A DNA stretch of 64,000 nt from Candidatus Curtissbacteria bacterium RIFOXYA1_FULL_41_14 (GTDB lineage Bacteria; Patescibacteriota; Microgenomatia; Curtissbacterales; GWA2-41-24). A program made the translations under genes and the position numbers. Location of the stretch: positions 116,075 to 180,074 of the forward strand of contig MFCA01000025.1 in assembly GCA_001775095.1 (NCBI GenBank). Direction: 5' to 3'. The notes beneath the pieces are model-generated. The model saw only the letters and a program-made list of their open reading frames with translations. It made no database searches and was not told the origin of the DNA. Below, piece after piece: positions 6,263 through 53,993 of this stretch (positions are counted from its first letter, which is position 1; each line of letters starts with the position of its first letter).

Positions 6263-9199
6263 TTAATGAAATATCTCCCTCATTGGTTTTTGCCAAGCAT
6301 TTTTGAGTTTATCTAAATCAAGATTACACAGATTCTTGCTACCACTGAATACACTGATTGTTTTGTCGGCTACTGTTTTTCCAAAAATAGCGTACGGTAT
6401 TCCAGTAAAAAGTTTTTTGGCAATTTGCGGATTTTCAACTTCAACTAAAAATGTTCCGGCTGTTTCAGAAAAAAGGATAAAGTCGGGACGTAGATTCACC
6501 CCCGGGGTGTCCTCATGGTGTCGTCCTGACTTCACCCCGGGGGTGTCAGTCTGGGTGACTACTGAAGACAGGTCGACCTCTGTCCCGCAATTTCCTCCAA
6601 AACACATTTCGGCAAGTGCCGCAGCCAAACCGCCTTCAGATATGTCATGACAGGATAAAATTTGACCTTGTGTTATTCCTTTTGTGACCGAGCCAAAAAC
6701 TTTCGTAAGAGACTTGAGATCAATCTTTGGAATTTCTGGATCTTTCGTGCCGAGAACATCGAAATAAGTAGATCCGCCAAGATTTTTAAAATCAGGTTTA
6801 CCAACTAAAACTATCGTTGATCCTTCTGATTTGAAATCAGAGCTGACTGTTTTTCTAACATCGGGAATTTTGCCAAAGACAGAAATAAGAAGGACAGGTG
6901 GTATCTTGAGAATTTTCCCCGAGGGGTACCTGTAAGTTGACGAAAGACTGTCTTTACCTGAAATAAATGGCATTTTTAAAAGTCTGGCCATATCAGAGCA
7001 GGCATCCACTGACTGGTCTAAGTCAAAAAGTGATTCTTCGTCGGGAAATGGCCAAATGAAATTGTCGATAAGAGCGGCGTTTTTAATATCACCACCGCAG
7101 GAGATGAAATTTGAAACCGCTTCAACAATTGCCCAAATGCTTCCCCCGTATGGATCAATAAGGTTAAGGGTGGGATTTAAACCATGGGTTATTACAACAC
7201 CGTATGGTTTTTTGAGGATTGGTCTAACAATAGTCCCGTCATTGGGTCCGTCTAAATTCACCCCGCTAAATGGATGCAGGGCATTTGTCCCTTGGACATT
7301 GTGGTCATACATTCTGACAATTGGTTCTTTGGAGCAGACATTGCCATGAGAAAGAACCTTCTCAAAAATCTCCTGCCAGTCATCTGCCTTTTTAGGAAGA
7401 GGTGGTAGTTTCTTGTTTCTTGTTTCTCCCGACCTCGTCTCGACTCGGTCGAGGACGGGTTGTTGCTTGTTTCTTGTTGTCTTCATGACTCTTTGAGGTA
7501 GTCCGTGATGTAAAAATTGCATTTCCAGATCACAAACTGGCTTTTTATCAAAAGTAACTCTTAGACGTTTAGAACCGTCGAATTTACCAATTACAGTCGC
7601 CTCAACGTTGTGAAGTTGGCAGATTTGAACAGCCTTTTTGAGATTTTGGGGATCAATTGCTAAAACCATTCGTTCCTGCGATTCGGAAATAAAAATTTCC
7701 CAAGGGGAAAGACCGGAATATTTAAGCGGCGCTTTCTCCAAAAAGACACGGGCGCCGATTTTTTGGCCCATCTCACCGATTGCCGACGAAAATCCACCGG
7801 CTCCGCAATCGGTGATTGCTCTTATTAATCCTTGATCGCGAAGGTCGTAAACTGCATCGATCATTCTTTTTTCCTCAATGGCATTGCCGATCTGAACCGC
7901 TGAACCTAAGACCGTTATTGTCCGATCTGTCATTTCTCCGGAGGAAAAAGTTGCTCCATGGATACCGTCTCGGCCAGTTCTACCCCCGATTGTTACAATT
8001 AGATCCCCTACTTTGGGGAATTGTTTTTTAGCGATTTTTTTGGGGATCAAACCGTAAGAACCGACCCCCACTGTGCATTTGGCGCGAAAATCCGGATGAA
8101 AATGCACGGATCCGTTATTTGTAGGGATGCCTACCCTGTTTCCGTAATCGCGGACTCCGGCAACAACTTTGCGCAGGATGTAGTCGGGAGGTAAACATCC
8201 GGGAGGAATAGATTTTGATGGAAGATCAGGCGGCGCAAAACAAAAAATATCAGTTGATGCGATAATTTTTGCACCTTTACCTGTTCCTAAAACATCACGA
8301 AAAACTCCACCGGAACCGGTCATTGCCCCACCGTACGGTTCAATTGCGCTAGGACTGTTGTGAGTTTCGACTTTGCCGGAAATTGCCCATCCGTCATAGA
8401 AATCAATGACACCGGAGTTATCGACAAATGCCGAAATGATCAGTTTTTTATTGTAGTTTGCTGTTTGCCGAATCCTGTCTATCAAGGGTTTTTTGACTTT
8501 TCCATCAACAATCAATTTTGCTTTGAAAGTCTTGTGGACGCAGTGTTCACTCCAGGTTTGAGCCAGGACTTCAATTTCGCAATCAGTCGGATCACGGCTG
8601 ATTTTGGCAAAATAGTTTTTAATTATCTTCATTTCCTGGCGGTTTAAGAAAAGACGATCTTTGGAAAGTTCCATTAACTGGCTATCTGATAGATTTCGAA
8701 CTGGGATTTTTTCGACTTTACCCTTTTGACCGGAAATCATCAGTGTCTTAGGAGGTTTTTTGACAACTTGTTCGACCGTTTCATTAACCAGAAGCCTATT
8801 CGTTATTATTGAGAGATCTTTGTCTTTCACCTTTCCCCAAAAGGCGTATTCGGTTGAGGTATCGGCAGCAGTCAATTTAATTTTCAAATCAGATGCTGCC
8901 TTGAGGAGCGATCCAACTTCAGGATTCATTACGCCGGGTTTATAGGCGACTTCGATTTTTTTATCGAAGCTGGAGAAAATTGGTTTGTTAAAAGACATTT
9001 GTTGATTAATTGGTTCAAATAAAACAGCTTGAGAAAATTTTTGGGCATCAGAGAAAGAGATTCCTTCAAGGCGGTAGACTTTGGATGAGCGGATATTTTT
9101 GATTGATTTGATGCCAAGCGTCCTTTTAATTTCGGCGAGGAGCTCCTGGCCTTTGGAATCGGTGGGGCTATTTGCAGTAATCCTTATTTCATAAATCAT
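6263..9199 (-). CDS. purL: PurS-PurL fusion: FGAM synthase II with an N-terminal PurS domain, carrying two in-frame repeat insertions
   Basis: First ~80 aa are PurS-like, followed by PurL AIRS/AIRS_C domains. At 978 aa it is ~150 aa longer than PurS+PurL. The extra length includes 'TDTPGVKSGRHHEDTPGV' and 'QQPVLDRVETRSGETRNKK', both encoded by palindromic repeats. Confidence 0.85.
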   Translation of the reverse strand: MIYEIRITANSPTDSKGQELLAEIKRTLGIKSIKNIRSSKVYRLEGISFSDAQKFSQAVLFEPINQQMSFNKPIFSSFDKKIEVAYKPGVMNPEVGSLLKAASDLKIKLTAADTSTEYAFWGKVKDKDLSIITNRLLVNETVEQVVKKPPKTLMISGQKGKVEKIPVRNLSDSQLMELSKDRLFLNRQEMKIIKNYFAKISRDPTDCEIEVLAQTWSEHCVHKTFKAKLIVDGKVKKPLIDRIRQTANYNKKLIISAFVDNSGVIDFYDGWAISGKVETHNSPSAIEPYGGAMTGSGGVFRDVLGTGKGAKIIASTDIFCFAPPDLPSKSIPPGCLPPDYILRKVVAGVRDYGNRVGIPTNNGSVHFHPDFRAKCTVGVGSYGLIPKKIAKKQFPKVGDLIVTIGGRTGRDGIHGATFSSGEMTDRTITVLGSAVQIGNAIEEKRMIDAVYDLRDQGLIRAITDCGAGGFSSAIGEMGQKIGARVFLEKAPLKYSGLSPWEIFISESQERMVLAIDPQNLKKAVQICQLHNVEATVIGKFDGSKRLRVTFDKKPVCDLEMQFLHHGLPQRVMKTTRNKQQPVLDRVETRSGETRNKKLPPLPKKADDWQEIFEKVLSHGNVCSKEPIVRMYDHNVQGTNALHPFSGVNLDGPNDGTIVRPILKKPYGVVITHGLNPTLNLIDPYGGSIWAIVEAVSNFISCGGDIKNAALIDNFIWPFPDEESLFDLDQSVDACSDMARLLKMPFISGKDSLSSTYRYPSGKILKIPPVLLISVFGKIPDVRKTVSSDFKSEGSTIVLVGKPDFKNLGGSTYFDVLGTKDPEIPKIDLKSLTKVFGSVTKGITQGQILSCHDISEGGLAAALAEMCFGGNCGTEVDLSSVVTQTDTPGVKSGRHHEDTPGVNLRPDFILFSETAGTFLVEVENPQIAKKLFTGIPYAIFGKTVADKTISVFSGSKNLCNLDLDKLKNAWQKPMREIFH

Positions 9200-10550: not shown

Positions 10551-10709
10551 AGATAAATTTCTAAATCCTAAATCCTAAATCCTAAATCCTAAACAAATTC
10601 TAATGACCAAAATCCAAATTTCAAAACTTTTTATTTTTTTTGAATTTAGATTTTTGATATTGTTTAGAGTTTAGATATTAGTGCTTAGGATTTATTTAGG
10701 TCAATTAGG

Positions 10710-11695: not shown

Positions 11696-11770
11696 CTTCC
11701 ACTCTCTGCGTCATTCCCGCAAATGCGGGAATCTATACAATAATTTGATTTGGGGAATAAAAAAGATTAC

Positions 11771-12241
11771 GGGAAGAGAGTAAGCCAGATTCTGTTTTAC
11801 CCTTCGATTACACTCAGGGTAAAACCCTGAGCTTGTCGAATGGGTTTTAACGATCATCTATCTCGAAATGACAATTTGATCATTTCGGCTCGCCTTTTGG
11901 GCGGGCTGCCCCTACTTAGAACCTCCCGGAAGCATGGTCAAACGGTTCTAGTCTGGGTTGCAACAGGTAGGATTGTCAGCGTTTCACTCCCGCTCGTCTC
12001 TGTGACTCTCAAGTCTTGTCAGTTCAAGACCTGTTCTAAACCCCGTATGCGGGGAACATCTGCTGTGGAGCAGACAAGGGTCTAGACACCAGCTATTAGC
12101 CTTCGACTGTACTCAGGCTACCCTGAATTACATTGAAGGGTACTAGTCGGAGCTTACACTCCGTCCCTTGCTTCCTGTTGTCTGGACTTTCCTCCAGGTA
12201 CCGTACGGTACCTGGCGATCGTTCTTCTTCCCGAAATCAGA
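11771..12241 (-). ncRNA. rnpB: RNase P RNA (bacterial type)
   Basis: Minus strand carries the conserved 'GGAGGAAAGUCCAGAC' (P4 5' strand) near the 5' end and 'ACAGAAUCUGGCUUA' (P4 3' strand) near the 3' end, plus 'GUGAAACGCUG'-like segments. A T-run and the hairpin 'GATTCCCGCATTTGCGGGAATG' follow the 3' end. Confidence 0.7.
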
Positions 12242-12342
12242 TATGGATTATATCAAAAAATAGGCAAATCTTCCACTAACCGATAACACCCCGGGGTGCG
12301 CAAAGATACACCCAGGCTCACCTCGGGGGTGGATCTTTGACT

Positions 12343-13374: not shown

Positions 13375-13474
13375 TTGTCCTTCAGTATATCAGGAAGCCC
13401 ATTCAAGCGAAAGCTTGAAGCGCAATCTCGCCCTCCAAGAGACACACCCGGTGTGTGCTCGGATGGGACTTGGC

Positions 13475-14488
13475 TCACACCGGGTGCGAAACAAGTTTTT
13501 TCAACTCTTGCTGCCAGTTGGGTTTTGAAATATCAAAAAGCCTAATTTTGGGAAACTTTTTAAACCAGGTTTTTTGGCGTCTGATAAAACTATGAACGTT
13601 GCCTCTTAGGCGGTTAATCGCTTCTCTCTGACTGATTTTGCCCGAAAGGTATCTTGATATCCAGCGACATTCAAGGCCAAGATCATCAAGCCACTGGGGG
13701 CTAACCCTTTTCTCTAGAAGTGTTTGAACTTCTTCAATCATTCCGTGCTCCAATCGTTCCTCAAGCCATTTATCAGCGCGGCTGTAAAGATAATTGTTTG
13801 GTGCGGTTAAGCCGATGATTTGATATTCCCCATCAAGCGACACACCCGGTGTGCGCTTTGACGCGACCCCGCTCACACCGGGTGTGAGATAGGAAGCGCG
13901 AGCGATTTCAATCGCGCGAATCAAGCGTCTTGGGTTTTGACGATCCGACTCATTCATACTCTTCGCTCTTTTTGGATCAATCTTTTCAAGTTTTTGATAA
14001 AGATGATCAATCGATAATTTCTCAAGCTCTCGGCGAAGTGTTAAGTCAGAAGGAATGCCGACTGATCCAATTCCATCGAGCAATGCTTTAATATAAAATC
14101 CTGTACCGCCCACTACAATCGGTAATTTCTTTGATACTATGATTTGAATCATAGTATCAGAAGCAAATTTTAAAAAATCTGATACCGAAAAAATTCCTTG
14201 CTCCGAACCCGGTTCGCGCAAAGATCCATCTGGGCTCGAATCGGGTTCGTATCTGGGTGGTTCCACAAGGTCGAAGCCGTGGATTTTGACACCATCGACA
14301 ATCCAGAAACCTTTGTGCTTTTCGACTTTTGATTTGAAGGAGGCTTTACCTGTTGTGATATCAAGATTCTGATATACCTGTCTTGAATCGGCTGAAATAA
14401 GTTCACCCTGAAACTTGCGTGCAAGTTGAAGGGCTAAGGCAGTTTTACCTGTTGCTGTCGGTCCATAAATAATCAATCTCTTTTTCAT
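13475..14488 (-). CDS. miaA: tRNA dimethylallyltransferase, with in-frame palindromic-repeat insertions
   Basis: P-loop 'GPTATGKT' and IPPT core. About 30 aa longer than typical MiaA. Carries a repeated 'TPGVS' peptide encoded by GC-rich palindromes. Confidence 0.85.
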   Translation of the reverse strand: MKKRLIIYGPTATGKTALALQLARKFQGELISADSRQVYQNLDITTGKASFKSKVEKHKGFWIVDGVKIHGFDLVEPPRYEPDSSPDGSLREPGSEQGIFSVSDFLKFASDTMIQIIVSKKLPIVVGGTGFYIKALLDGIGSVGIPSDLTLRRELEKLSIDHLYQKLEKIDPKRAKSMNESDRQNPRRLIRAIEIARASYLTPGVSGVASKRTPGVSLDGEYQIIGLTAPNNYLYSRADKWLEERLEHGMIEEVQTLLEKRVSPQWLDDLGLECRWISRYLSGKISQREAINRLRGNVHSFIRRQKTWFKKFPKIRLFDISKPNWQQELKKLVSHPV

Positions 14489-22472: not shown

Positions 22473-23747
22473 TTAGTGAACGGCACTTCGAGGATTACCT
22501 TTGTGATTAATTAGCTTATCAAGGATCTGGAAGCGGCGCTGTTTTTCTTTGTAGGAAACATCATCGTCAAACGCTTTCGCAGCGGCAGTATTTGGTCGAG
22601 GGGAGTATTTGGCAATATAAGCATAGGCAAAATTAACTGTTTGAGCTAACTTAACTGTGTTTTGAAAATTTCTTTCGCTTTCTTGGCAAAAGCCGACAAT
22701 AATATCTGTCGAAATCTGAGTGTCGGGAATCTCCTTTCTGATTTTTTTGACCAAATTGATATACTGGCTCGCTGTATACCATCTATTCATTTTTTTAAGC
22801 ATTTGGTCATCTCCGGACTGAACAGGCAGATGAATGTTTCTGTCAATTTTGGGATTTTTGGAGATTGTCTCGATGAGCTCATCGGAAAAATCCCAGGGAT
22901 TTGAAGAAATGAATTTAACCGTTTCAACTCCCCCACTTCGTCCGGCTTTGCCGGACTTCGAGGGGCAAGCTTCTATTTTGCAAACTTCTTCAAGAAGATA
23001 AGGAAACAATGTTGGAATTCGCAATTTTCCCAAATGCTTTACCATCACCGGTTTAACTACTCGACCATTAGGAAGCTTATAACCGGCTTTTGTATTTTTG
23101 ACTCGATCAGATCCATATGAATTAACATTTTGGCCAAGGAGGGTAATTTCTCGGCATCCTCTTTCCGCCAGTTCTTTGACTTCATCGATAACATCTTCAA
23201 ATGGCCTTGATACTTCTTGCCCTCTGGTAAAAGGTACGACGCAATAAGTACAAAAATTATTGCAGCCGTTGGAAATTGGTATCCAAGCATGAGTTGCGTC
23301 ACTTCGAAGTGCCGGATAATTAAAACCAACCTCTTCCAGAGGTAAAAATTCATCAACTTGGGGTATTCTCTTGTGAAGAGTATTAAGATACTTACCACTC
23401 GTGTCCCTGGCGACCATTCCAGTCATGCAGCCGGTAAGAACAATTTTAGGCCTCCGGCCCGGTCTCCGACGTAGAGACGTCTCTGACTCGGAACGAGGGC
23501 CTCCGGCCCGGTGGGCCTCTTTGATAATATTTCTGATAAATCCGGTCACTTTATCTTCTGCAGATTGACGGACCATGCAGGTGTTGATGATTATTTCAGA
23601 AGCTGATTTGAGATCCTTTGCCCTTTTAAAACCCCTTGCCAAATAGTAACTGGCAATTCTTTGGCTATCTGCCCAGTTTTGCTGGCAACCGAAAGTTTTG
23701 ATGTAAAATGTAGGAGATTTCATTGTTAAATTGTTAAATACGCACAA
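22473..23747 (-). CDS. radical-SAM methylthiotransferase (MiaB/RimO family), with two in-frame GC-rich repeat insertions
   Basis: N-terminal MTTase 'KTFGCQQNWADSQ', radical SAM core and TRAM-like C-terminus. Insertion peptides are 'RAGGPRSESETSLRRRPGRRP' and 'CPSKSGKAGRSGG'. Confidence 0.7.
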   Translation of the reverse strand: MCVFNNLTMKSPTFYIKTFGCQQNWADSQRIASYYLARGFKRAKDLKSASEIIINTCMVRQSAEDKVTGFIRNIIKEAHRAGGPRSESETSLRRRPGRRPKIVLTGCMTGMVARDTSGKYLNTLHKRIPQVDEFLPLEEVGFNYPALRSDATHAWIPISNGCNNFCTYCVVPFTRGQEVSRPFEDVIDEVKELAERGCREITLLGQNVNSYGSDRVKNTKAGYKLPNGRVVKPVMVKHLGKLRIPTLFPYLLEEVCKIEACPSKSGKAGRSGGVETVKFISSNPWDFSDELIETISKNPKIDRNIHLPVQSGDDQMLKKMNRWYTASQYINLVKKIRKEIPDTQISTDIIVGFCQESERNFQNTVKLAQTVNFAYAYIAKYSPRPNTAAAKAFDDDVSYKEKQRRFQILDKLINHKGNPRSAVH

Positions 23748-24245: not shown

Positions 24246-25031
24246 CTATGTGGAAATAGACGAATATCTTCTAAGAGCAAAATGCCAAAATTTGATGCCT
24301 ATTCCAAAAAAAGTTAGACCGATAGCAAAAGAAATCAATATCCACTGCCAGGATAAAATTCCGAGAAGCACTTTGGCAGGAATCGAAACCATTACCGCAA
24401 TTGGGATAATAAAGGTTAAAACAAATTGGACTAGTGATGAATAAATATCAACAGGGAACCGCCCCATTGTCATTAAATCCCGATAAACCCAAATTTCGGA
24501 AGAGATTTCTTGAGTCAGAATAGAAAGGGCGATAATAACAACATGGATGGAGAAAGCGATTAGAAGTGCATTGAAGCAGAGAAGCAAATAGAAAATAAAG
24601 TTATAAAAAGTGATGGATGTTTCCAGTCTCGCAACGATTATTCCTAAAACTATTACCACTGGTACTAAAGTGGCTAAATCCAGAAGGTCAATAATATCTG
24701 AAACAATTCTAAATAATGTGTTTACCGGCTGAGTAAGAATATAATCTATTTCTCCTTTATTAATCATCCAGCCAATCGCATATGCACTCCTTAGGAAAAA
24801 CTGACTTACGATATCAATTAAATTGAATGTCATAAAAAAAAGTAAGGTTTGATAGAGGCTAAACCCGGCCAAGGTTTGGGTTTTGGTTAAAAGGGCAATA
24901 ATAAAAATAAAAAAGAAAGAGAAACGAATTAACTTTCCTGAAATCAAAAATATTGAATGGAGACGCGATTCAATGTAATATTCACGAAATCTCATCTTGG
25001 CTAATCTCGTCCATACTCGTAGGTATTTCAT
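24246..25031 (-). CDS. ABC-2 type transporter permease
   Basis: 6-TM ABC-2 topology. Start trimmed to 'MKYLRV' because the upstream codons are two palindromic repeats. Confidence 0.55.
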   Translation of the reverse strand: MKYLRVWTRLAKMRFREYYIESRLHSIFLISGKLIRFSFFFIFIIALLTKTQTLAGFSLYQTLLFFMTFNLIDIVSQFFLRSAYAIGWMINKGEIDYILTQPVNTLFRIVSDIIDLLDLATLVPVVIVLGIIVARLETSITFYNFIFYLLLCFNALLIAFSIHVVIIALSILTQEISSEIWVYRDLMTMGRFPVDIYSSLVQFVLTFIIPIAVMVSIPAKVLLGILSWQWILISFAIGLTFFGIGIKFWHFALRRYSSIST

Positions 25032-25134
25032 AATTTGAAATTCCTGCCTGCCGGCAGGCAGGTGCAATTTGACATTTGAAATTCCCGGCCTTGTCTCGAC
25101 TTTGTCGAGGACGGGTTGAAATTTGAAATTGATA

Positions 25135-25932
25135 TTAGCCTCCCCAGGCTTCATAAGCTTTTAAGCCTTTGTTCCAAACAAATTTTGTAACTGAAAAAAC
25201 CGCAAAAAGCCAAAGTGTTGAGATCAAGATTACCCGAATCGACTCAATATATGATAATTTACCAAGAAAAATACTGATCGGATAATATAAAAGATAAGGA
25301 AATGGGGTTAGTTTGATAACAGATTGAATGGTAGCTGGCAATACATCCAACGGAAAATAAGCGCCTGCTGAAAATTCCAGTATCAAGAGCATCATAAATT
25401 GTAAGCCCCAGACTTGAGGGGTCCAAAATCCCGTCGTTGACACTAAGATACCCATGTAAAAATAAATTAAAATTGCAATAAAGGTTGCTAGCAAAAATAA
25501 CAAAAAAGTTAATATTCCTGCCGGTTGAACAAAAGGAATTTGGAAAAAAATAGTTGGAATAATAATTATTAGAATAATTGAAACCAGGCTAGTTAATTTA
25601 TAGACTAAATCAACGGTAAACCAATAGGAAAAATAACCAATCGGTTTTAATAAGTAAGAGAAAAATTTTCCCCATGATTGTAGTTCCTGAGCAATCTGAT
25701 CAGTCGCGCTGATAATTACAAATTGGCGAAGAATAGTCGCTAAGAATACATAAGTAATAATCTGTTCCCTGTCAAAATTAAAAAGAATTATTCTTGTCTT
25801 AAAAACTTGTGTCCAAAGAAAATATAAAGTGATCAAAAGTAAAATAGCCCGAAATTGACTAATTAAATATTCCCAGCGGTAAACAAGAACATTAGCAAAT
25901 GTGATTCGCGCGACTGCGAGATATTTCCTCAT
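25135..25932 (-). CDS. ABC-2 type transporter permease
   Basis: 6-TM permease overlapping the ATPase gene. Confidence 0.6.
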   Translation of the reverse strand: MRKYLAVARITFANVLVYRWEYLISQFRAILLLITLYFLWTQVFKTRIILFNFDREQIITYVFLATILRQFVIISATDQIAQELQSWGKFFSYLLKPIGYFSYWFTVDLVYKLTSLVSIILIIIIPTIFFQIPFVQPAGILTFLLFLLATFIAILIYFYMGILVSTTGFWTPQVWGLQFMMLLILEFSAGAYFPLDVLPATIQSVIKLTPFPYLLYYPISIFLGKLSYIESIRVILISTLWLFAVFSVTKFVWNKGLKAYEAWGG

Positions 25933-41129: not shown

Positions 41130-41184
41130 ACGCCCTCCTTCGTCGGGAATTTTAAATTTAAAATTTCAAATTTAAAATTAATTA

Positions 41185-41370
41185 TCACCATGATGCTTTT
41201 TTGACTCCCGGTATTTCACCACGATGAACAAGATCCCTGAAACAAAGACGGCAGATACCGAATTTTCGCAAGTATCCTCTGGGTCTTCCACAGAGCCGGC
41301 AACGATTCCGATGTCTTATTTCAAATTTTAACTTTTGTTCGTTTTTAACAATTTTTGATTTTTTAGCCAT
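41185..41370 (-). CDS. rpsZ: 30S ribosomal protein S14 type Z (zinc-binding)
   Basis: 61 aa with '[20 protein letters not shown]'. Confidence 0.9.
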
Positions 41371-41388
41371 TGTAACCTCCTGTTAATT

Positions 41389-43502: not shown

Positions 43503-43595
43503 ATGCTCTCCTTCGGAGGAATTTCTAATTTCTAATTTCTAATTTCCAATATTTGAAATTTGACATTTGAAATTGGTAATTATTTGAAATTCTCA

Positions 43596-44237: not shown

Positions 44238-44318
44238 AGAACCTCCCTTCGATCGGTAGTGAAAAGTGAAAAGTGAAAAGTGAAAAGTTATTGAAAAATT
44301 TTTCTAAATTTTGATTTG

Positions 44319-46271: not shown

Positions 46272-47110
46272 TTAGCGACTCCTATTGCCTCTTTGGATAG
46301 CAATATATTTCTATTCTTAATAATTTCGAAGGCATTGAGATTGGCCATACGACTGACTAGTATTCTCTGAATATTTCGCGTCGCCAGTTTCACATCTTGT
46401 CCATTGTTTACCGGTTTGTCGGAAATTACTAAAAGACAATTTCCTTGTAAATCTAATTTTTTAAGTAAACTTGCAATAATTTTCGTCTTAGCTTGAATTT
46501 TTTCGATATTAGTAATTACTTTGACACTTCCTTCTTGGGCTTTTAATGAAAATGCACTCACCAGAGCCTTTCTTTTCATTTTCTTAGGCAAAGTTAAAGT
46601 TACCTTTCTGAATTTAGGGCCATGGGCAACACCTCCGCCTACCCAAAGCGGTGAGCGGATTGATCCTGCGCGGGCTCTGCCAGTGCCTTTTTGGCGCCAG
46701 GGCTTGCGGCCCCCGCCTCTTGTCTGGGAACGAGTTTTTGTAGAACCCGCGTGAACTGACTGGTTTACCGAATAGATGCGAATTGCCTGGGCTAAAAGCT
46801 TTTCGTTTGGCTTTTGACCGAAAATTTCGCGAGGAAGAGCAACTTTGCCAATAGATCGGCCGTTTATGTCAAAAGCAGGAGCCAAAAGTCCTCCACCAGC
46901 GGATTTAACCTGCCTGCCGGCAGGCAGGCTCTTGACGGTTTTTGTCTTTCTCGGTGCCTTCTGTTTATCTTCTGTGCCTTCTGTGATTATCTTTTTATCC
47001 ACGATCTTAGAACTGGTCTTCGATCTAATTTTGACCTGTTTAGATTTTGCTATCTTTGTTATTTTTTTTGCTGCTGCCATAATTATTTCTCTTGAAACCA
47101 CTGAGAGCAC
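46268..47110 (-). CDS. rplD: 50S ribosomal protein L4, with ~75-aa N-terminal extension containing an in-frame palindromic repeat ('LPAGRQ')
   Basis: L4 core begins near 'FDINGRSIGKVALP'. The extension contains 'CTGCCTGCCGGCAGGCAGG'. Confidence 0.8.
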   Translation of the reverse strand: MLSVVSREIIMAAAKKITKIAKSKQVKIRSKTSSKIVDKKIITEGTEDKQKAPRKTKTVKSLPAGRQVKSAGGGLLAPAFDINGRSIGKVALPREIFGQKPNEKLLAQAIRIYSVNQSVHAGSTKTRSQTRGGGRKPWRQKGTGRARAGSIRSPLWVGGGVAHGPKFRKVTLTLPKKMKRKALVSAFSLKAQEGSVKVITNIEKIQAKTKIIASLLKKLDLQGNCLLVISDKPVNNGQDVKLATRNIQRILVSRMANLNAFEIIKNRNILLSKEAIGVAK

Positions 47111-47917: not shown

Positions 47918-48147
47918 TTTTACACCAAAAAGGCAGGACTCCTTAGATGTCTTCAGGTGTCCCACCACAACGATTTTAAAATGTTCTGTTAATCGTTAAT
48001 GGCCAGTTGTTATTAAATTTTTTACTTATTAACCTCCGCCGTAAAATTTCTAATTTCTAATTATTCTAATTTCTAATCAATTCCTAAATTTAAAAATTTC
48101 TAAATTATTTAGGTCAATTAGGTTACTTAGAGCAATTAGAAATTAAC

Positions 48148-53805: not shown

Positions 53806-53850
53806 TAAGTTATAAGTTATAAGTTATAAGTTGTAAGTTAAAAGTTAAAA
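53806..53850 (-). repeat. heptamer tandem array (AACTTAT/AACTTTT x7 on the minus strand) in the rpsL 5' leader
   Basis: Perfect and near-perfect 7-bp units between a 'TGATATAAT' extended -10 and the rpsL ATG. Confidence 0.7.
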
Positions 53851-53993
53851 GTTGTTGAGAAATTATATCAGAAACTTGGCCGCTTTTCATTGTATTTTTG
53901 CCCTTTCCGGACTAGTAGGAATTAAGCGGCCAATTATATCAGCTGTCGCCTTCTGAAATGCAGAAGTATACTCCACTGATATAATTGTCAGGC

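What the first reader, a model, noticed from the sequence alone, without database searches (positions are those of the whole stretch)
7409..7481. Second palindromic element (GTCTCGAC..GTCGAGGAC flanked by CTTGTTTCTTGTT) inserted in frame in purL and again upstream of an ABC permease
A 38-bp near-perfect palindrome CTCCCGACCTCGTCTCGACTCGGTCGAGGACGGGTTG with (T)TGTTTCT direct repeats on both sides lies within purL. It encodes 'QQPVLDRVETRSGETRNKK'. A second copy at 25085..25117 would encode 'QPVLDKVETRPG' if translated. This confirms an independent repeat rather than native PurL sequence. The same ORF is therefore hit by two different repeat families.
Basis: seen in the sequence. Interest (0 to 1): 0.65.

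Follow-up and report, generated by a model that had tools for sequence, protein, structure and literature searches.

The report
Tiny hairpin repeat inserted inside genes
A 33-base GC-rich hairpin sequence, found almost letter-for-letter in many ultra-small (CPR) bacteria, sits in frame inside the purL gene of this Curtissbacteria genome and again in a gene spacer 17 kb away; it behaves like one of the smallest mobile DNA elements known and lands inside runs of 7-base repeats.

Summary
Two 89%-identical copies lie at 7427-7459 (purL codons 581-591, PVLDRVETRSG) and 25083-25115 (spacer between two ABC-2 permease genes). Of 119 other PurL sequences, 117 lack the segment; the two that carry it are the same species and a likely chimera. 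The window is a Candidatus Curtissbacteria (CPR) genome.

Public scans found 33 distinct insertion sites, all in low-GC CPR-type DNA. The 32-nt core is nearly invariant.

- 21 sites lie in frame inside long ORFs, 11 confirmed by Pfam as real proteins.
- The core is read in all three frames.
- Comparing orthologous genes with and without the element shows an insertion of exactly 33 nt (11 codons) with no target duplication.
- It sits between A residues (TCAA^A), usually inside A/T-rich heptamer tandem arrays that already existed.
- The core has no stop codon in any of six frames, and the PurL insert is a disordered linker.

Best reading: a non-autonomous miniature mobile palindrome that resembles REP, RPE and cyanobacterial SDR elements. 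The enzyme that moves it is unknown, and a hairpin-recognising single-strand transposase is only an inference. It fails the membership tests for REP, RPE and MITE. I found no prior description for CPR.

The parts
7427..7459 (-). Copy A of the 33-nt palindromic element. Sense strand (minus): CCCGTCCTCGACCGAGTCGAGACGAGGTCGGGA. It forms purL codons 581-591 (PVLDRVETRSG).
   Evidence: Absent from 117 of 119 other PurL sequences. Empty site CAA^GAA in the P0007 gene (L085). pLDDT <50 and coil for aa 579-597.
7408..7426 (-). Heptamer tandem array on the low-coordinate side of copy A. The unit is GTTTCTT on the plus strand, ACAAGAA-type on the sense strand. It encodes ETRNKK.
   Evidence: TRF, (7408-7427, 2.9 copies, 100% matches). 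Phase analysis.
7460..7483 (-). Heptamer tandem array on the high-coordinate side of copy A (TTGTTTC x3.3). It encodes TTRNKQQ. The array stays in phase with the other side once 33 nt are removed.
6263..9199 (-). purS-purL fusion gene (FGAM synthase II), 978 aa against about 940-945 in most orthologues. It hosts copy A and a second, unrelated repeat insert at 6497-6545.
   Evidence: Pfam FGAR-AT_linker, AIRS and AIRS_C. Homologues named PurL of Candidatus Curtissbacteria. Identical to P0121 = EKD57380.1 / KKR58506.1.
25083..25115 (-). Copy B of the element (4 substitutions), intergenic.
25116..25130 (-). Heptamer array (TTGAAAT x2.1) on one side of copy B.
25063..25082 (-). Heptamer units (sense AATTTCA AATGTCA AATTGCA) between copy B and the neighbouring 20-nt palindrome.
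25043..25062 (.). A different perfect palindrome, CCTGCCTGCCGGCAGGCAGG, in the same heptamer array. A second copy lies at 46909-46928 inside the L4 gene. Translated it gives LPAGRQ, which appears as an insert in other PurL orthologues.
   Evidence: I18, I19.
25032..25042 (-). The last 1.5 heptamer units (AATTTCAAATT), directly upstream of the ATG of the downstream permease gene.
24246..25031 (-). ABC-2 family permease gene downstream of copy B. The probable true start is ATG 25031.
   Evidence: Pfam PF06182 over residues 39-258, profile positions 6-227.
25135..25932 (-). ABC-2 family permease gene upstream of copy B (stop codon at 25135-25137).

Best explanation
The segment is one copy of a dispersed family of 33-nt, GC-rich, imperfectly palindromic elements found in CPR (Patescibacteria) genomes. 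It is not native PurL sequence.

Shown:
- The element entered an existing purL linker as a discrete block of exactly 33 nt (11 codons).
- It sits between two A residues (sense strand ...TCAA^A...) and makes no target-site duplication (at most 1 nt).
- It lies inside an A/T-rich array of 7-nt tandem repeats.
- 33 is a multiple of 3 and the core has no stop codon in any of six frames. In the A-rich orientation most host arrays are also open in all three frames. Insertion therefore adds only 11 residues to a surface linker, which is why the element persists inside essential genes.

Inferred:
- The element is non-autonomous and is moved in trans.
- The most likely agent is an enzyme that recognises the hairpin on single-stranded DNA and cuts and joins precisely next to a short target, in the way IS200/IS605 TnpA or REP-associated tyrosine transposases work.
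- Each unit of a heptamer array offers a fresh CAA^A target.

My confidence by layer is: repeat family and secondary insertion about 0.95; discrete 33-nt insertion without duplication about 0.75; single-strand hairpin transposase about 0.3.
For: Repeat family:
- There are two copies in the window, against none expected by chance.
- The scans found 8 genome loci and 45 metagenome loci, giving 33 distinct flank contexts with a nearly invariant core. Only 4 core positions vary, including the positions the search left free.
- Record titles name Curtissbacteria (4 contigs of one MAG), Saccharibacteria (2) and a Patescibacteria-group MAG.

Secondary insertion:
- 117 of 119 other PurL sequences lack it.
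- The P0007 gene has CAA^GAA at the empty site, and the linker lengths agree to within one residue once 33 nt are removed.

Exact 33-nt insertion with no duplication:
- In LeuRS, the L044 gene (empty) reads GAA GTGAAAA GTGAAAA GTTAAAA GTTAAAA GTG. The L059 gene (filled) reads GAA GTCAAAA GTCAAAA GTTAA[33 nt]AA GTTAAAA GTA.
- All 21 copies detected inside arrays interrupt the array by 33 or 33+7 nt and leave it in phase.

The core behaves as a discrete unit:
- Orthologous GT2 genes in L063 and L067 have the same total flank length (36 nt), but the core is displaced by one 7-nt unit and so is read in a different frame.

Target:
- Position -1 is A in 32/32 sites, +1 is A in 32/32 and +2 is A in 29/32. 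The consensus is TCAA^AANT.
- About ten sites are not clean arrays. Four of these lie in the loops of other palindromes (L042, L079, L081, L046), so homology with the flanks is not required.

Arrays come first:
- Period-7 arrays number 58, against 1-11 for periods 5, 6, 8 and 9, in 420 kb of CPR DNA.
- Seven empty arrays lie in the window itself.
- Arrays with other units occupy the same transketolase linker in orthologues that lack the core.

Tolerance in genes:
- 21 of 33 sites lie inside long ORFs.
- Pfam domains span the element in DNA ligase, MiaB, DUF72, RsmH, LeuRS (L044) and IleRS, or lie on both sides of it in transketolase, the second LeuRS (L059) and LepA. In FolC the matched domains lie only downstream. 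PurL itself also has domains on both sides.
- The frames used are 9, 7 and 3, plus 2 copies in the reverse orientation, so no particular peptide is selected.
- There are no stop codons in any of six frames.
- The PurL insert is predicted to be disordered.

No decayed copies were found in 420 kb.
Against: - No transposase has been identified. Ten genes next to intergenic copies are ordinary genes, and none of the ten window ORFs scanned is a transposase. Whole genomes could not be searched.
- No presence/absence polymorphism was seen within a species. All full-length members of the window's PurL cluster (978 aa, 53 contigs) carry the element.
- The comparisons between genes with and without the element are between orthologues of different species, in fast-evolving linkers. 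Only the LeuRS pair is exact to the nucleotide.
- A single 33-nt hairpin is smaller than any substrate shown to be moved by a Y1 transposase. Known IS200/IS605 elements need two different ends.
- Core invariance is partly due to how the copies were found, because the scans required 25 exact bases.
- The preference for arrays would also be expected if copies spread by recombination between similar arrays.
Confidence: 0.6

Rival explanations
1. The element spreads without a transposase. Copies are transferred between similar A/T-rich heptamer arrays by homologous recombination or gene conversion, for instance after DNA uptake, with the array units on both sides serving as short homology arms.
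For: About 23 of 33 sites are inside arrays with related units (TTCAAAN type). The core always has the same orientation relative to the A-rich strand of the array. There is no target duplication and the array stays in phase. The core is identical across distant CPR lineages, which fits horizontal DNA exchange.
Against: About ten sites have no array homology. They include loops of unrelated GC-rich palindromes and plain A-rich sequence: L042, L079, L081, L046, L021, L078 and L003. In the LeuRS pair the units next to the core are those of the recipient lineage and are not a shared donor-type unit. Array units differ between sites by 1-3 of 7 nt, which leaves very short perfect homology.
Confidence: 0.2
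2. The hairpin is a selected cis-acting signal, such as a protein-binding site, an mRNA-stabilising or ribosome-pausing hairpin, or part of a translational-bypass or RNA-excision device. On this view it was acquired because it benefits the host genes and is not selfish DNA.
For: The core is very strongly conserved and no decayed copies were seen. Copies often sit in inter-domain linkers, where a pause could help folding. Intergenic copies lie close to start codons.
Against: The host genes and positions are unrelated to one another. Most orthologues do without the element. The reading frame is always maintained through arrays plus core, which bypass or excision would not require. Strain variants break the inner stem (D584N, a G-to-A change) with no other change in the element. 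The fold is only modestly more stable than shuffled sequence. There is no Rfam match.
Confidence: 0.08
3. The segment is native, lineage-specific PurL linker sequence, or an assembly artefact, and its resemblance to the second site is coincidental.
For: The PurL linker varies in length and sequence among orthologues.
Against: A 32-nt identical core occurs at 33 unrelated sites in independent NCBI, JGI and ENA assemblies. The exact PurL protein is recorded on 53 contigs. Chance expectation is 0.
Confidence: 0.01

Closest known systems
Rickettsia palindromic elements (RPE; Ogata et al. 2000, recalled from my own knowledge; RPE-4 and RPE-6 are mentioned in PMC3733652)
   Same: Selfish palindromic repeats that insert in frame into protein-coding genes, essential ones included. 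They add a tolerated peptide segment in surface regions and are read in more than one frame.
   Different: RPEs are about 100-150 bp and restricted to Rickettsia. This element is 33 nt, unrelated in sequence, found in CPR bacteria, targeted to heptamer arrays, and makes no target duplication.
REP / REPIN elements and their RAYT transposases, including the GTAG- and CGTC-tagged REP superfamilies (PMC3733652, PMC3116915)
   Same: An imperfect GC-rich palindrome 20-40 nt long, dispersed, presumably mobilised in trans. REPs are occasionally found inside genes.
   Different: REPs are high-copy, mainly extragenic and often paired head-to-head. They carry an unpaired GTAG or CGTC tag, with 8-9 bp stems and 4-5 nt loops for the CGTC type. 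Here copies are single and occur at about 1 per 30-100 kb. 21 of 33 sites are in genes, the stem and loop geometry differs, and no RAYT was seen.
Cyanobacterial small dispersed repeats SDR4-6 and STRR heptamer arrays (Elhai et al. 2008; the paper was not available in the library, so details are from memory, plus one sentence in PMC4390886 on the precise insertion of SDR5 within HIP1)
   Same: Very small (21-27 nt) hairpin-forming modules that insert precisely into short specific contexts. As I recall, these contexts include tandem heptamer repeats, and the modules can nest within one another. Heptamer arrays are also abundant in those genomes.
   Different: The phylum, the sequence and the heptamer units are all different. 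The SDRs are not known for frequent in-frame residence in housekeeping genes. Any link is by analogy only.
IS200/IS605-family single-strand transposition (own knowledge)
   Same: Insertion immediately 3' of a short target (here TCAA^) with no target duplication. Recognition of DNA hairpins. A fixed orientation relative to one strand of the target.
   Different: Those elements are 0.6-2 kb or more, with two different hairpin ends and a tnpA gene. No such gene or second end is linked to this 33-nt element.
Mitochondrial GC clusters and 'byp' elements of yeasts (own knowledge)
   Same: Short GC-rich hairpin elements that invade AT-rich genomes, including coding regions, and nest within one another.
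   Different: Byps are skipped by the ribosome and need not preserve the reading frame. Here the frame is always preserved, so normal translation is the simplest reading.

Membership tests
REP (GTAG/CGTC-tagged repetitive extragenic palindromes) | Palindromic unit 20-40 bp long, repeated in the genome | tested here: met
   A 32-33 nt imperfect palindrome with 2 copies in the window and 33 distinct sites in public data.
REP (GTAG/CGTC-tagged repetitive extragenic palindromes) | Unpaired terminal GTAG or CGTC tag. For the CGTC type: stems of 8-9 bp starting with two A-T pairs, loops of 4-5 nt and a CCA tail (PMC3733652, section 6) | tested here: not met
   A CGTC does occur (sense nt 3-6), but its first two bases are paired in the predicted fold. 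The stems are 4+5 bp, or a 5-bp inner stem with a 3-nt loop, and are GC-only. There is no CCA tail.
REP (GTAG/CGTC-tagged repetitive extragenic palindromes) | Predominantly extragenic, often in head-to-head pairs (REPIN/BIME) | tested here: not met
   21 of 33 sites lie inside long ORFs. Every copy is single, with at most 2 per locus and those 6 kb apart.
REP (GTAG/CGTC-tagged repetitive extragenic palindromes) | Associated RAYT (Y1 transposase) gene flanked by the repeats | tested here: inconclusive
   Ten genes next to intergenic copies and ten window ORFs include no transposase. Whole genomes could not be searched.
Rickettsia palindromic elements (RPE) | Palindromic repeats about 100-150 bp long in Rickettsia genomes, related in sequence to RPE-1 to RPE-8 | tested here: not met
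   The element is 33 nt. Its hosts are CPR bacteria.
Rickettsia palindromic elements (RPE) | In-frame insertion into protein-coding genes without disrupting them | tested here: met
   PurL plus ten other proteins, with Pfam matches spanning or on both sides of the element in all but FolC.
MITE (miniature inverted-repeat transposable element) | Terminal inverted repeats derived from an IS element, a target-site duplication of 2-10 bp, and a size of about 50-500 bp | tested here: not met
   No duplication beyond a possible 1 nt. The element is 33 nt. No related IS element is known.
IS200/IS605-type single-strand mobile DNA | Insertion 3' of a specific 4-5 nt target with no duplication | tested here: met
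   The insertion point is TCAA^A. Positions -1 and +1 are A in 32/32 sites. The LeuRS pair shows exactly +33 nt.
IS200/IS605-type single-strand mobile DNA | Two distinct subterminal hairpin ends and a tnpA (Y1 HUH) gene, present in cis or in trans | not testable with these tools
   Only one hairpin is present. No genome-wide protein search tied to these genomes was possible.
Cyanobacterial SDR modules | 21-27 nt hairpin modules inserted precisely into set contexts such as heptamer repeats or HIP1 | tested here: inconclusive
   The behaviour matches. The size (33 nt), the sequence and the host phylum differ. The defining paper was not readable, so only a secondary statement in PMC4390886 could be used.

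The most novel reading that the evidence does not exclude
CPR bacteria carry a previously undescribed class of 'nano-transposons'. These are single-hairpin DNA modules of a few tens of bases (this one is 33 nt) that move by precise, duplication-free insertion into the A-tracts of 7-nt microsatellite arrays. They are exchanged between CPR classes. Their multiple-of-3 length and lack of stop codons in all six frames let them live inside essential genes of tiny, gene-dense genomes. On this reading, the heptamer arrays plus interchangeable palindromic cores form a general system that reshapes protein linkers and intergenic spacers in these organisms.
Probability: 0.35. Interest if true: 0.8.

Novelty: new variant of a known kind. 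Interest (0 to 1): 0.62.

Why it matters
- If the 33-nt core truly moves as a unit, it is among the smallest mobile DNA elements known. It would give a clean system for studying how a single hairpin is recognised, cut and pasted.
- It shows that proteins of CPR bacteria, including aminoacyl-tRNA synthetases, DNA ligase, transketolase and PurL, are peppered with peptides encoded by repeats. This affects gene calling, orthologue alignment, phylogenomics and structure prediction for this large, uncultured part of the bacterial tree.
- The near-identity of the core in Curtissbacteria and Saccharibacteria assemblies points to DNA exchange, or to a shared enzyme, across deep CPR lineages.
- The heptamer arrays that host the element are a striking and apparently unreported feature of these genomes.

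Tried and rejected
- **Target-site duplication.** I first read the matching flanks (CTTGTTTCTTGTT and ATTTGAAATT) as duplications of 10-13 bp. I rejected this because the flanks are periodic heptamer arrays, and the LeuRS genes with and without the element differ by exactly 33 nt.
- **Heptamer arrays as footprints of 7-bp duplications from repeated insertion and excision.** I rejected this for coding sites, because 33+7 nt would shift the reading frame and the LeuRS pair has equal unit numbers.
- **Known RNA family.** No credible Rfam match at either copy.
- **Phage origin.** No matches in 2.9 million viral contigs.
- **CRISPR repeat.** Never found in arrays.
- **Peptide census.** A search with the three frame peptides concatenated found nothing, because the word index returned only 1 candidate. 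That search was wasted.
- **Source contigs.** Look-ups for P0001 and P0023 returned nothing.
- **P0076 as an older lineage sharing the insert.** Rejected. It is about 65% identical over residues 1-300 and about 99.5% over 301-715, so it is a chimera or recombinant.
- **Decayed copies.** None found in 420 kb of CPR loci by blastn-short. An earlier fuzzy-regex attempt timed out.
- **Literature.** Nine full-text searches found no description of such elements in CPR bacteria. The Elhai 2008 paper could not be read.
Full report
**1. What is in the window**

At 7427-7462 the plus strand reads TCCCGACCTCGTCTCGACTCGGTCGAGGACGGGTTG. A second copy, 89% identical, lies at 25083-25118. A 26-mer from it matches only these two places at up to 3 mismatches, and none of 100 dinucleotide shuffles gave any match.

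The unit is an imperfect palindrome. It has CCCG/CGGG and CCTCG/CGAGG stems with an A.A mismatch, plus an alternative TCGAC/GTCGA inner stem. It is only modestly more stable than shuffled sequence: z = -2.1 to -3.4 as DNA and -1.2 to -1.6 as RNA. 'Near-perfect 38-bp palindrome' therefore overstates it.

Copy A lies on the antisense strand of a 978-aa ORF (6263..9199, minus strand). Pfam and homologues identify this ORF as a purS-purL fusion of Candidatus Curtissbacteria, a CPR/Patescibacteria lineage. The protein is identical to NCBI EKD57380.1 and KKR58506.1 and is recorded on 53 contigs. The element is exactly codons 581-591, PVLDRVETRSG.

Copy B lies in the 103-nt spacer between two ABC-2 permease genes (25135..25932 and 24246..25031). 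It is next to a different 20-nt perfect palindrome, CCTGCCTGCCGGCAGGCAGG.

**2. It is not native PurL**

In an alignment of 120 PurL sequences the segment is present in only three. These are the query-identical representative of the species cluster (P0001), the window itself (through P0121), and P0076. P0076 is a chimera or recombinant whose second half is about 99.5% identical to the window protein.

The gene for P0007 (71% identical) reads AGA CAA^GAA ACC at the empty site. Once the 33 nt are removed, the window linker has the same length as in P0023 and is one residue longer than in P0007.

An AlphaFold2 model built on 50 sequences (mean pLDDT 74.7) puts residues 579-597 in a coil with pLDDT below 50, between the two halves of the enzyme.

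Other orthologues carry other repeat-encoded inserts in the same linker, for example LPAGRQ, which is the translation of the 20-nt palindrome, and RHSGD.... The second insert in the window's PurL (aa ~885-901) is likewise a hot spot.

**3. The family**

An exact-pattern scan of one genome per species found 39 loci. Thirty-one are chance hits to the right arm in high-GC genomes. Eight carry the full element, and all eight are low-GC DNA:
- four contigs of Curtissbacteria RIFCSPLOWO2_02_41_11;
- two Saccharibacteria MAGs;
- one Patescibacteria-group MAG;
- one 37%-GC contig labelled Pseudomonadales, which is probably mis-binned.

A stricter pattern found 45 metagenome loci, all genuine, and no viral contigs.

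After merging identical flanks there are 33 distinct sites. The core varies at only 4 of 32 positions, even where the pattern left bases free. No decayed copies were found in 420 kb of the fetched CPR DNA. Density is low, about 1 copy per 30-100 kb.

**4. Anatomy of the insertion**

The flanks are not simple duplications. They are tandem arrays of 7-nt units (TTCAAAG, TTCAAAA, TTCAAAT, TCCAAAT, ACAAGAA and others on the sense strand). The units differ between sites but match on both sides of the core.

- In all 21 array-embedded copies detected, the array continues in phase once 33 nt (or 33+7) are removed.
- The clearest case is LeuRS. The L044 gene has GAA GTGAAAA GTGAAAA GTTAAAA GTTAAAA GTG. 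The L059 gene has GAA GTCAAAA GTCAAAA GTTAA[33 nt]AA GTTAAAA GTA. The insertion is exactly 33 nt, into a four-unit array that already existed, with no duplication.
- Two orthologous GT2 genes (L063, L067) have the same total array length, but the core sits one unit apart and is read in a different frame. The core therefore behaves as a separate unit from its array.
- The insertion point is constant on the sense strand. Position -1 is A in 32/32 sites, +1 is A in 32/32, and the consensus is TCAA^AANT.
- About ten sites are not in clean arrays. Four lie in the loops of other GC-rich palindromes, again at GA^A or AA^A.

**5. The arrays**

Period-7 arrays of at least 3 units are far more common than other periods in these CPR loci: 58, against 11, 7, 3 and 1 for periods 5, 6, 8 and 9. 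The window has seven empty ones, all in short spacers just upstream of start codons.

Arrays also occupy coding linkers in orthologues that lack the core. Transketolase is an example: KYKIQNT-type peptides are translated heptamers.

Other palindromic cores of 20, 27, 30 and 39 nt interrupt arrays in the same way. The arrays therefore look like general landing pads, and this 33-nt core uses those that contain a CAA^A motif.

**6. Residence in genes**

Twenty-one of the 33 sites are inside long ORFs. Pfam confirms real host proteins. A domain match spans the element in ATP-dependent DNA ligase, MiaB, DUF72, RsmH, LeuRS (L044) and IleRS. Domains lie on both sides of it in transketolase, the second LeuRS (L059, a different site), LepA and PurL. 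In FolC the matched domains lie only downstream of the element.

The core is read in all three sense frames:
- PVLDRVETRSG, 9 sites;
- NPSSTESRRGRE, 7 sites;
- TRPRPSRDEVG, 3 sites;
- in reverse orientation when nested in another palindrome, 2 sites.

No particular peptide is therefore selected.

The core has no stop codon in any of six frames. The common A-rich array units are open in all three sense frames but give TGA in every antisense frame. This explains why coding copies share one orientation. Intergenic copies are split 8:3, which is no clear bias.

**7. Mechanism**

Four things are shown: a discrete 33-nt insertion, no duplication, a fixed target and orientation relative to the A-rich strand, and independence from flank homology at some sites.

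From these I infer trans-mobilisation by a hairpin-recognising enzyme that acts on single-stranded DNA, on the IS200/IS605 or RAYT model. No such gene was found near any copy, and whole genomes could not be searched.

The main rival is recombination or gene conversion between similar arrays. A selected cis-acting role, translational bypass and artefact are all unlikely.

**8. Comparison with known systems**

The element works like an RPE (in-frame selfish palindrome). It also resembles a REP (a small GC-rich hairpin) and the cyanobacterial SDR modules (precise insertion of tiny hairpins into set contexts; PMC4390886).

It fails the membership tests:
- REP: tag, stem and loop geometry, and extragenic, paired organisation.
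- RPE: size and host.
- MITE: terminal inverted repeats and target duplication.

Nine full-text searches found no description of such elements in CPR bacteria. This is absence from that library, not proof of novelty.

**9. Verdict**

The element belongs to a new family, and arguably a new variant of the small-palindrome class. It is notable for four things: its minimal size, its insertion without target duplication into heptamer arrays, its near-identity across CPR lineages, and its frequent residence in essential genes.

Noticed in passing
window 10561-10593, 41148-41179, 43520-43574, 44258-44288, 48045-48077, 53806-53853: Empty tandem heptamer arrays (3.4-6.9 units, a different unit at each site) fill short spacers just upstream of start codons in the purine and ribosomal-protein operons. 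Period 7 is strongly over-represented compared with periods 5, 6, 8 and 9 in 420 kb of related CPR DNA (58 against 1-11).
   Followed up: partly
window 43503-43595, 44238-44318, 41130-41388 (sense = minus strand): Between the heptamer array and the start codon sits a mini-hairpin that pairs CCUCC with the Shine-Dalgarno sequence, e.g. CCTCCGAAGGAGAGCATATG, CCGATCGAAGGGAGGTTCTGTG and CCCGACGAAGGAGGGCGTATG. This could be a translational control motif.
   Followed up: no
window 6497-6545 (purL aa ~885-901): A second, unrelated palindromic repeat (CACCCCCGGGGTG ... CACCCCGGGGGTG) lies in frame in purL and encodes TPGVKSGRHHEDTPGV. The same position holds different repeat-encoded inserts in many orthologues (RLSHPERSEG, SSEVDLR and others). 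It is predicted to be disordered.
   Followed up: partly
window 25043-25062 and 46909-46928: The 20-nt perfect palindrome CCTGCCTGCCGGCAGGCAGG occurs in the same heptamer array as copy B and inside the 90-aa N-terminal extension of ribosomal protein L4. Its translation, LPAGRQ, appears as an insert in other PurL orthologues (P0034, P0036) and in glycosyltransferases from other loci.
   Followed up: partly
window 12290-12336, 13431-13489, 13829-13887, 14200-14254: Another family of GC-rich palindromes (CCCGGTGTGCGC...GCTCACACCGGGTG). One copy is upstream of the RNase P RNA gene, one lies at the 3' end of miaA, and two lie inside the miaA gene (13475..14488). The Pfam match to MiaA is interrupted between residues 66 and 100.
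   Followed up: no
window 11765-12234 (minus strand): A class A RNase P RNA scores 76.9 bits, below Rfam's gathering score of 100. The cause is large insertions (135 nt where the model has 13, and a 37-nt insert near the 3' end), so it is missed by a standard scan.
   Followed up: partly
window 23447-23523: Paired GC-rich repeats (GGCCTCCGGCCCGG ... GGCCTCCGGCCCGG) lie inside the radical-SAM domain of a MiaB-like gene (22473..23747), in frame.
   Followed up: no
purL codon 584 (window ~7448-7450): Strains of the same species differ by D584N inside the element. This is a G-to-A change that breaks the inner stem, which suggests the hairpin is not under strong constraint once inserted.
   Followed up: partly
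L050, L053, L044 (proteins from related loci): The same housekeeping proteins carry further repeat-encoded peptides that are shared between unrelated proteins, for example TTSGQSTT...TRDTL and SGFPPASA.... This points to many more in-frame repeat families in these genomes.
   Followed up: no
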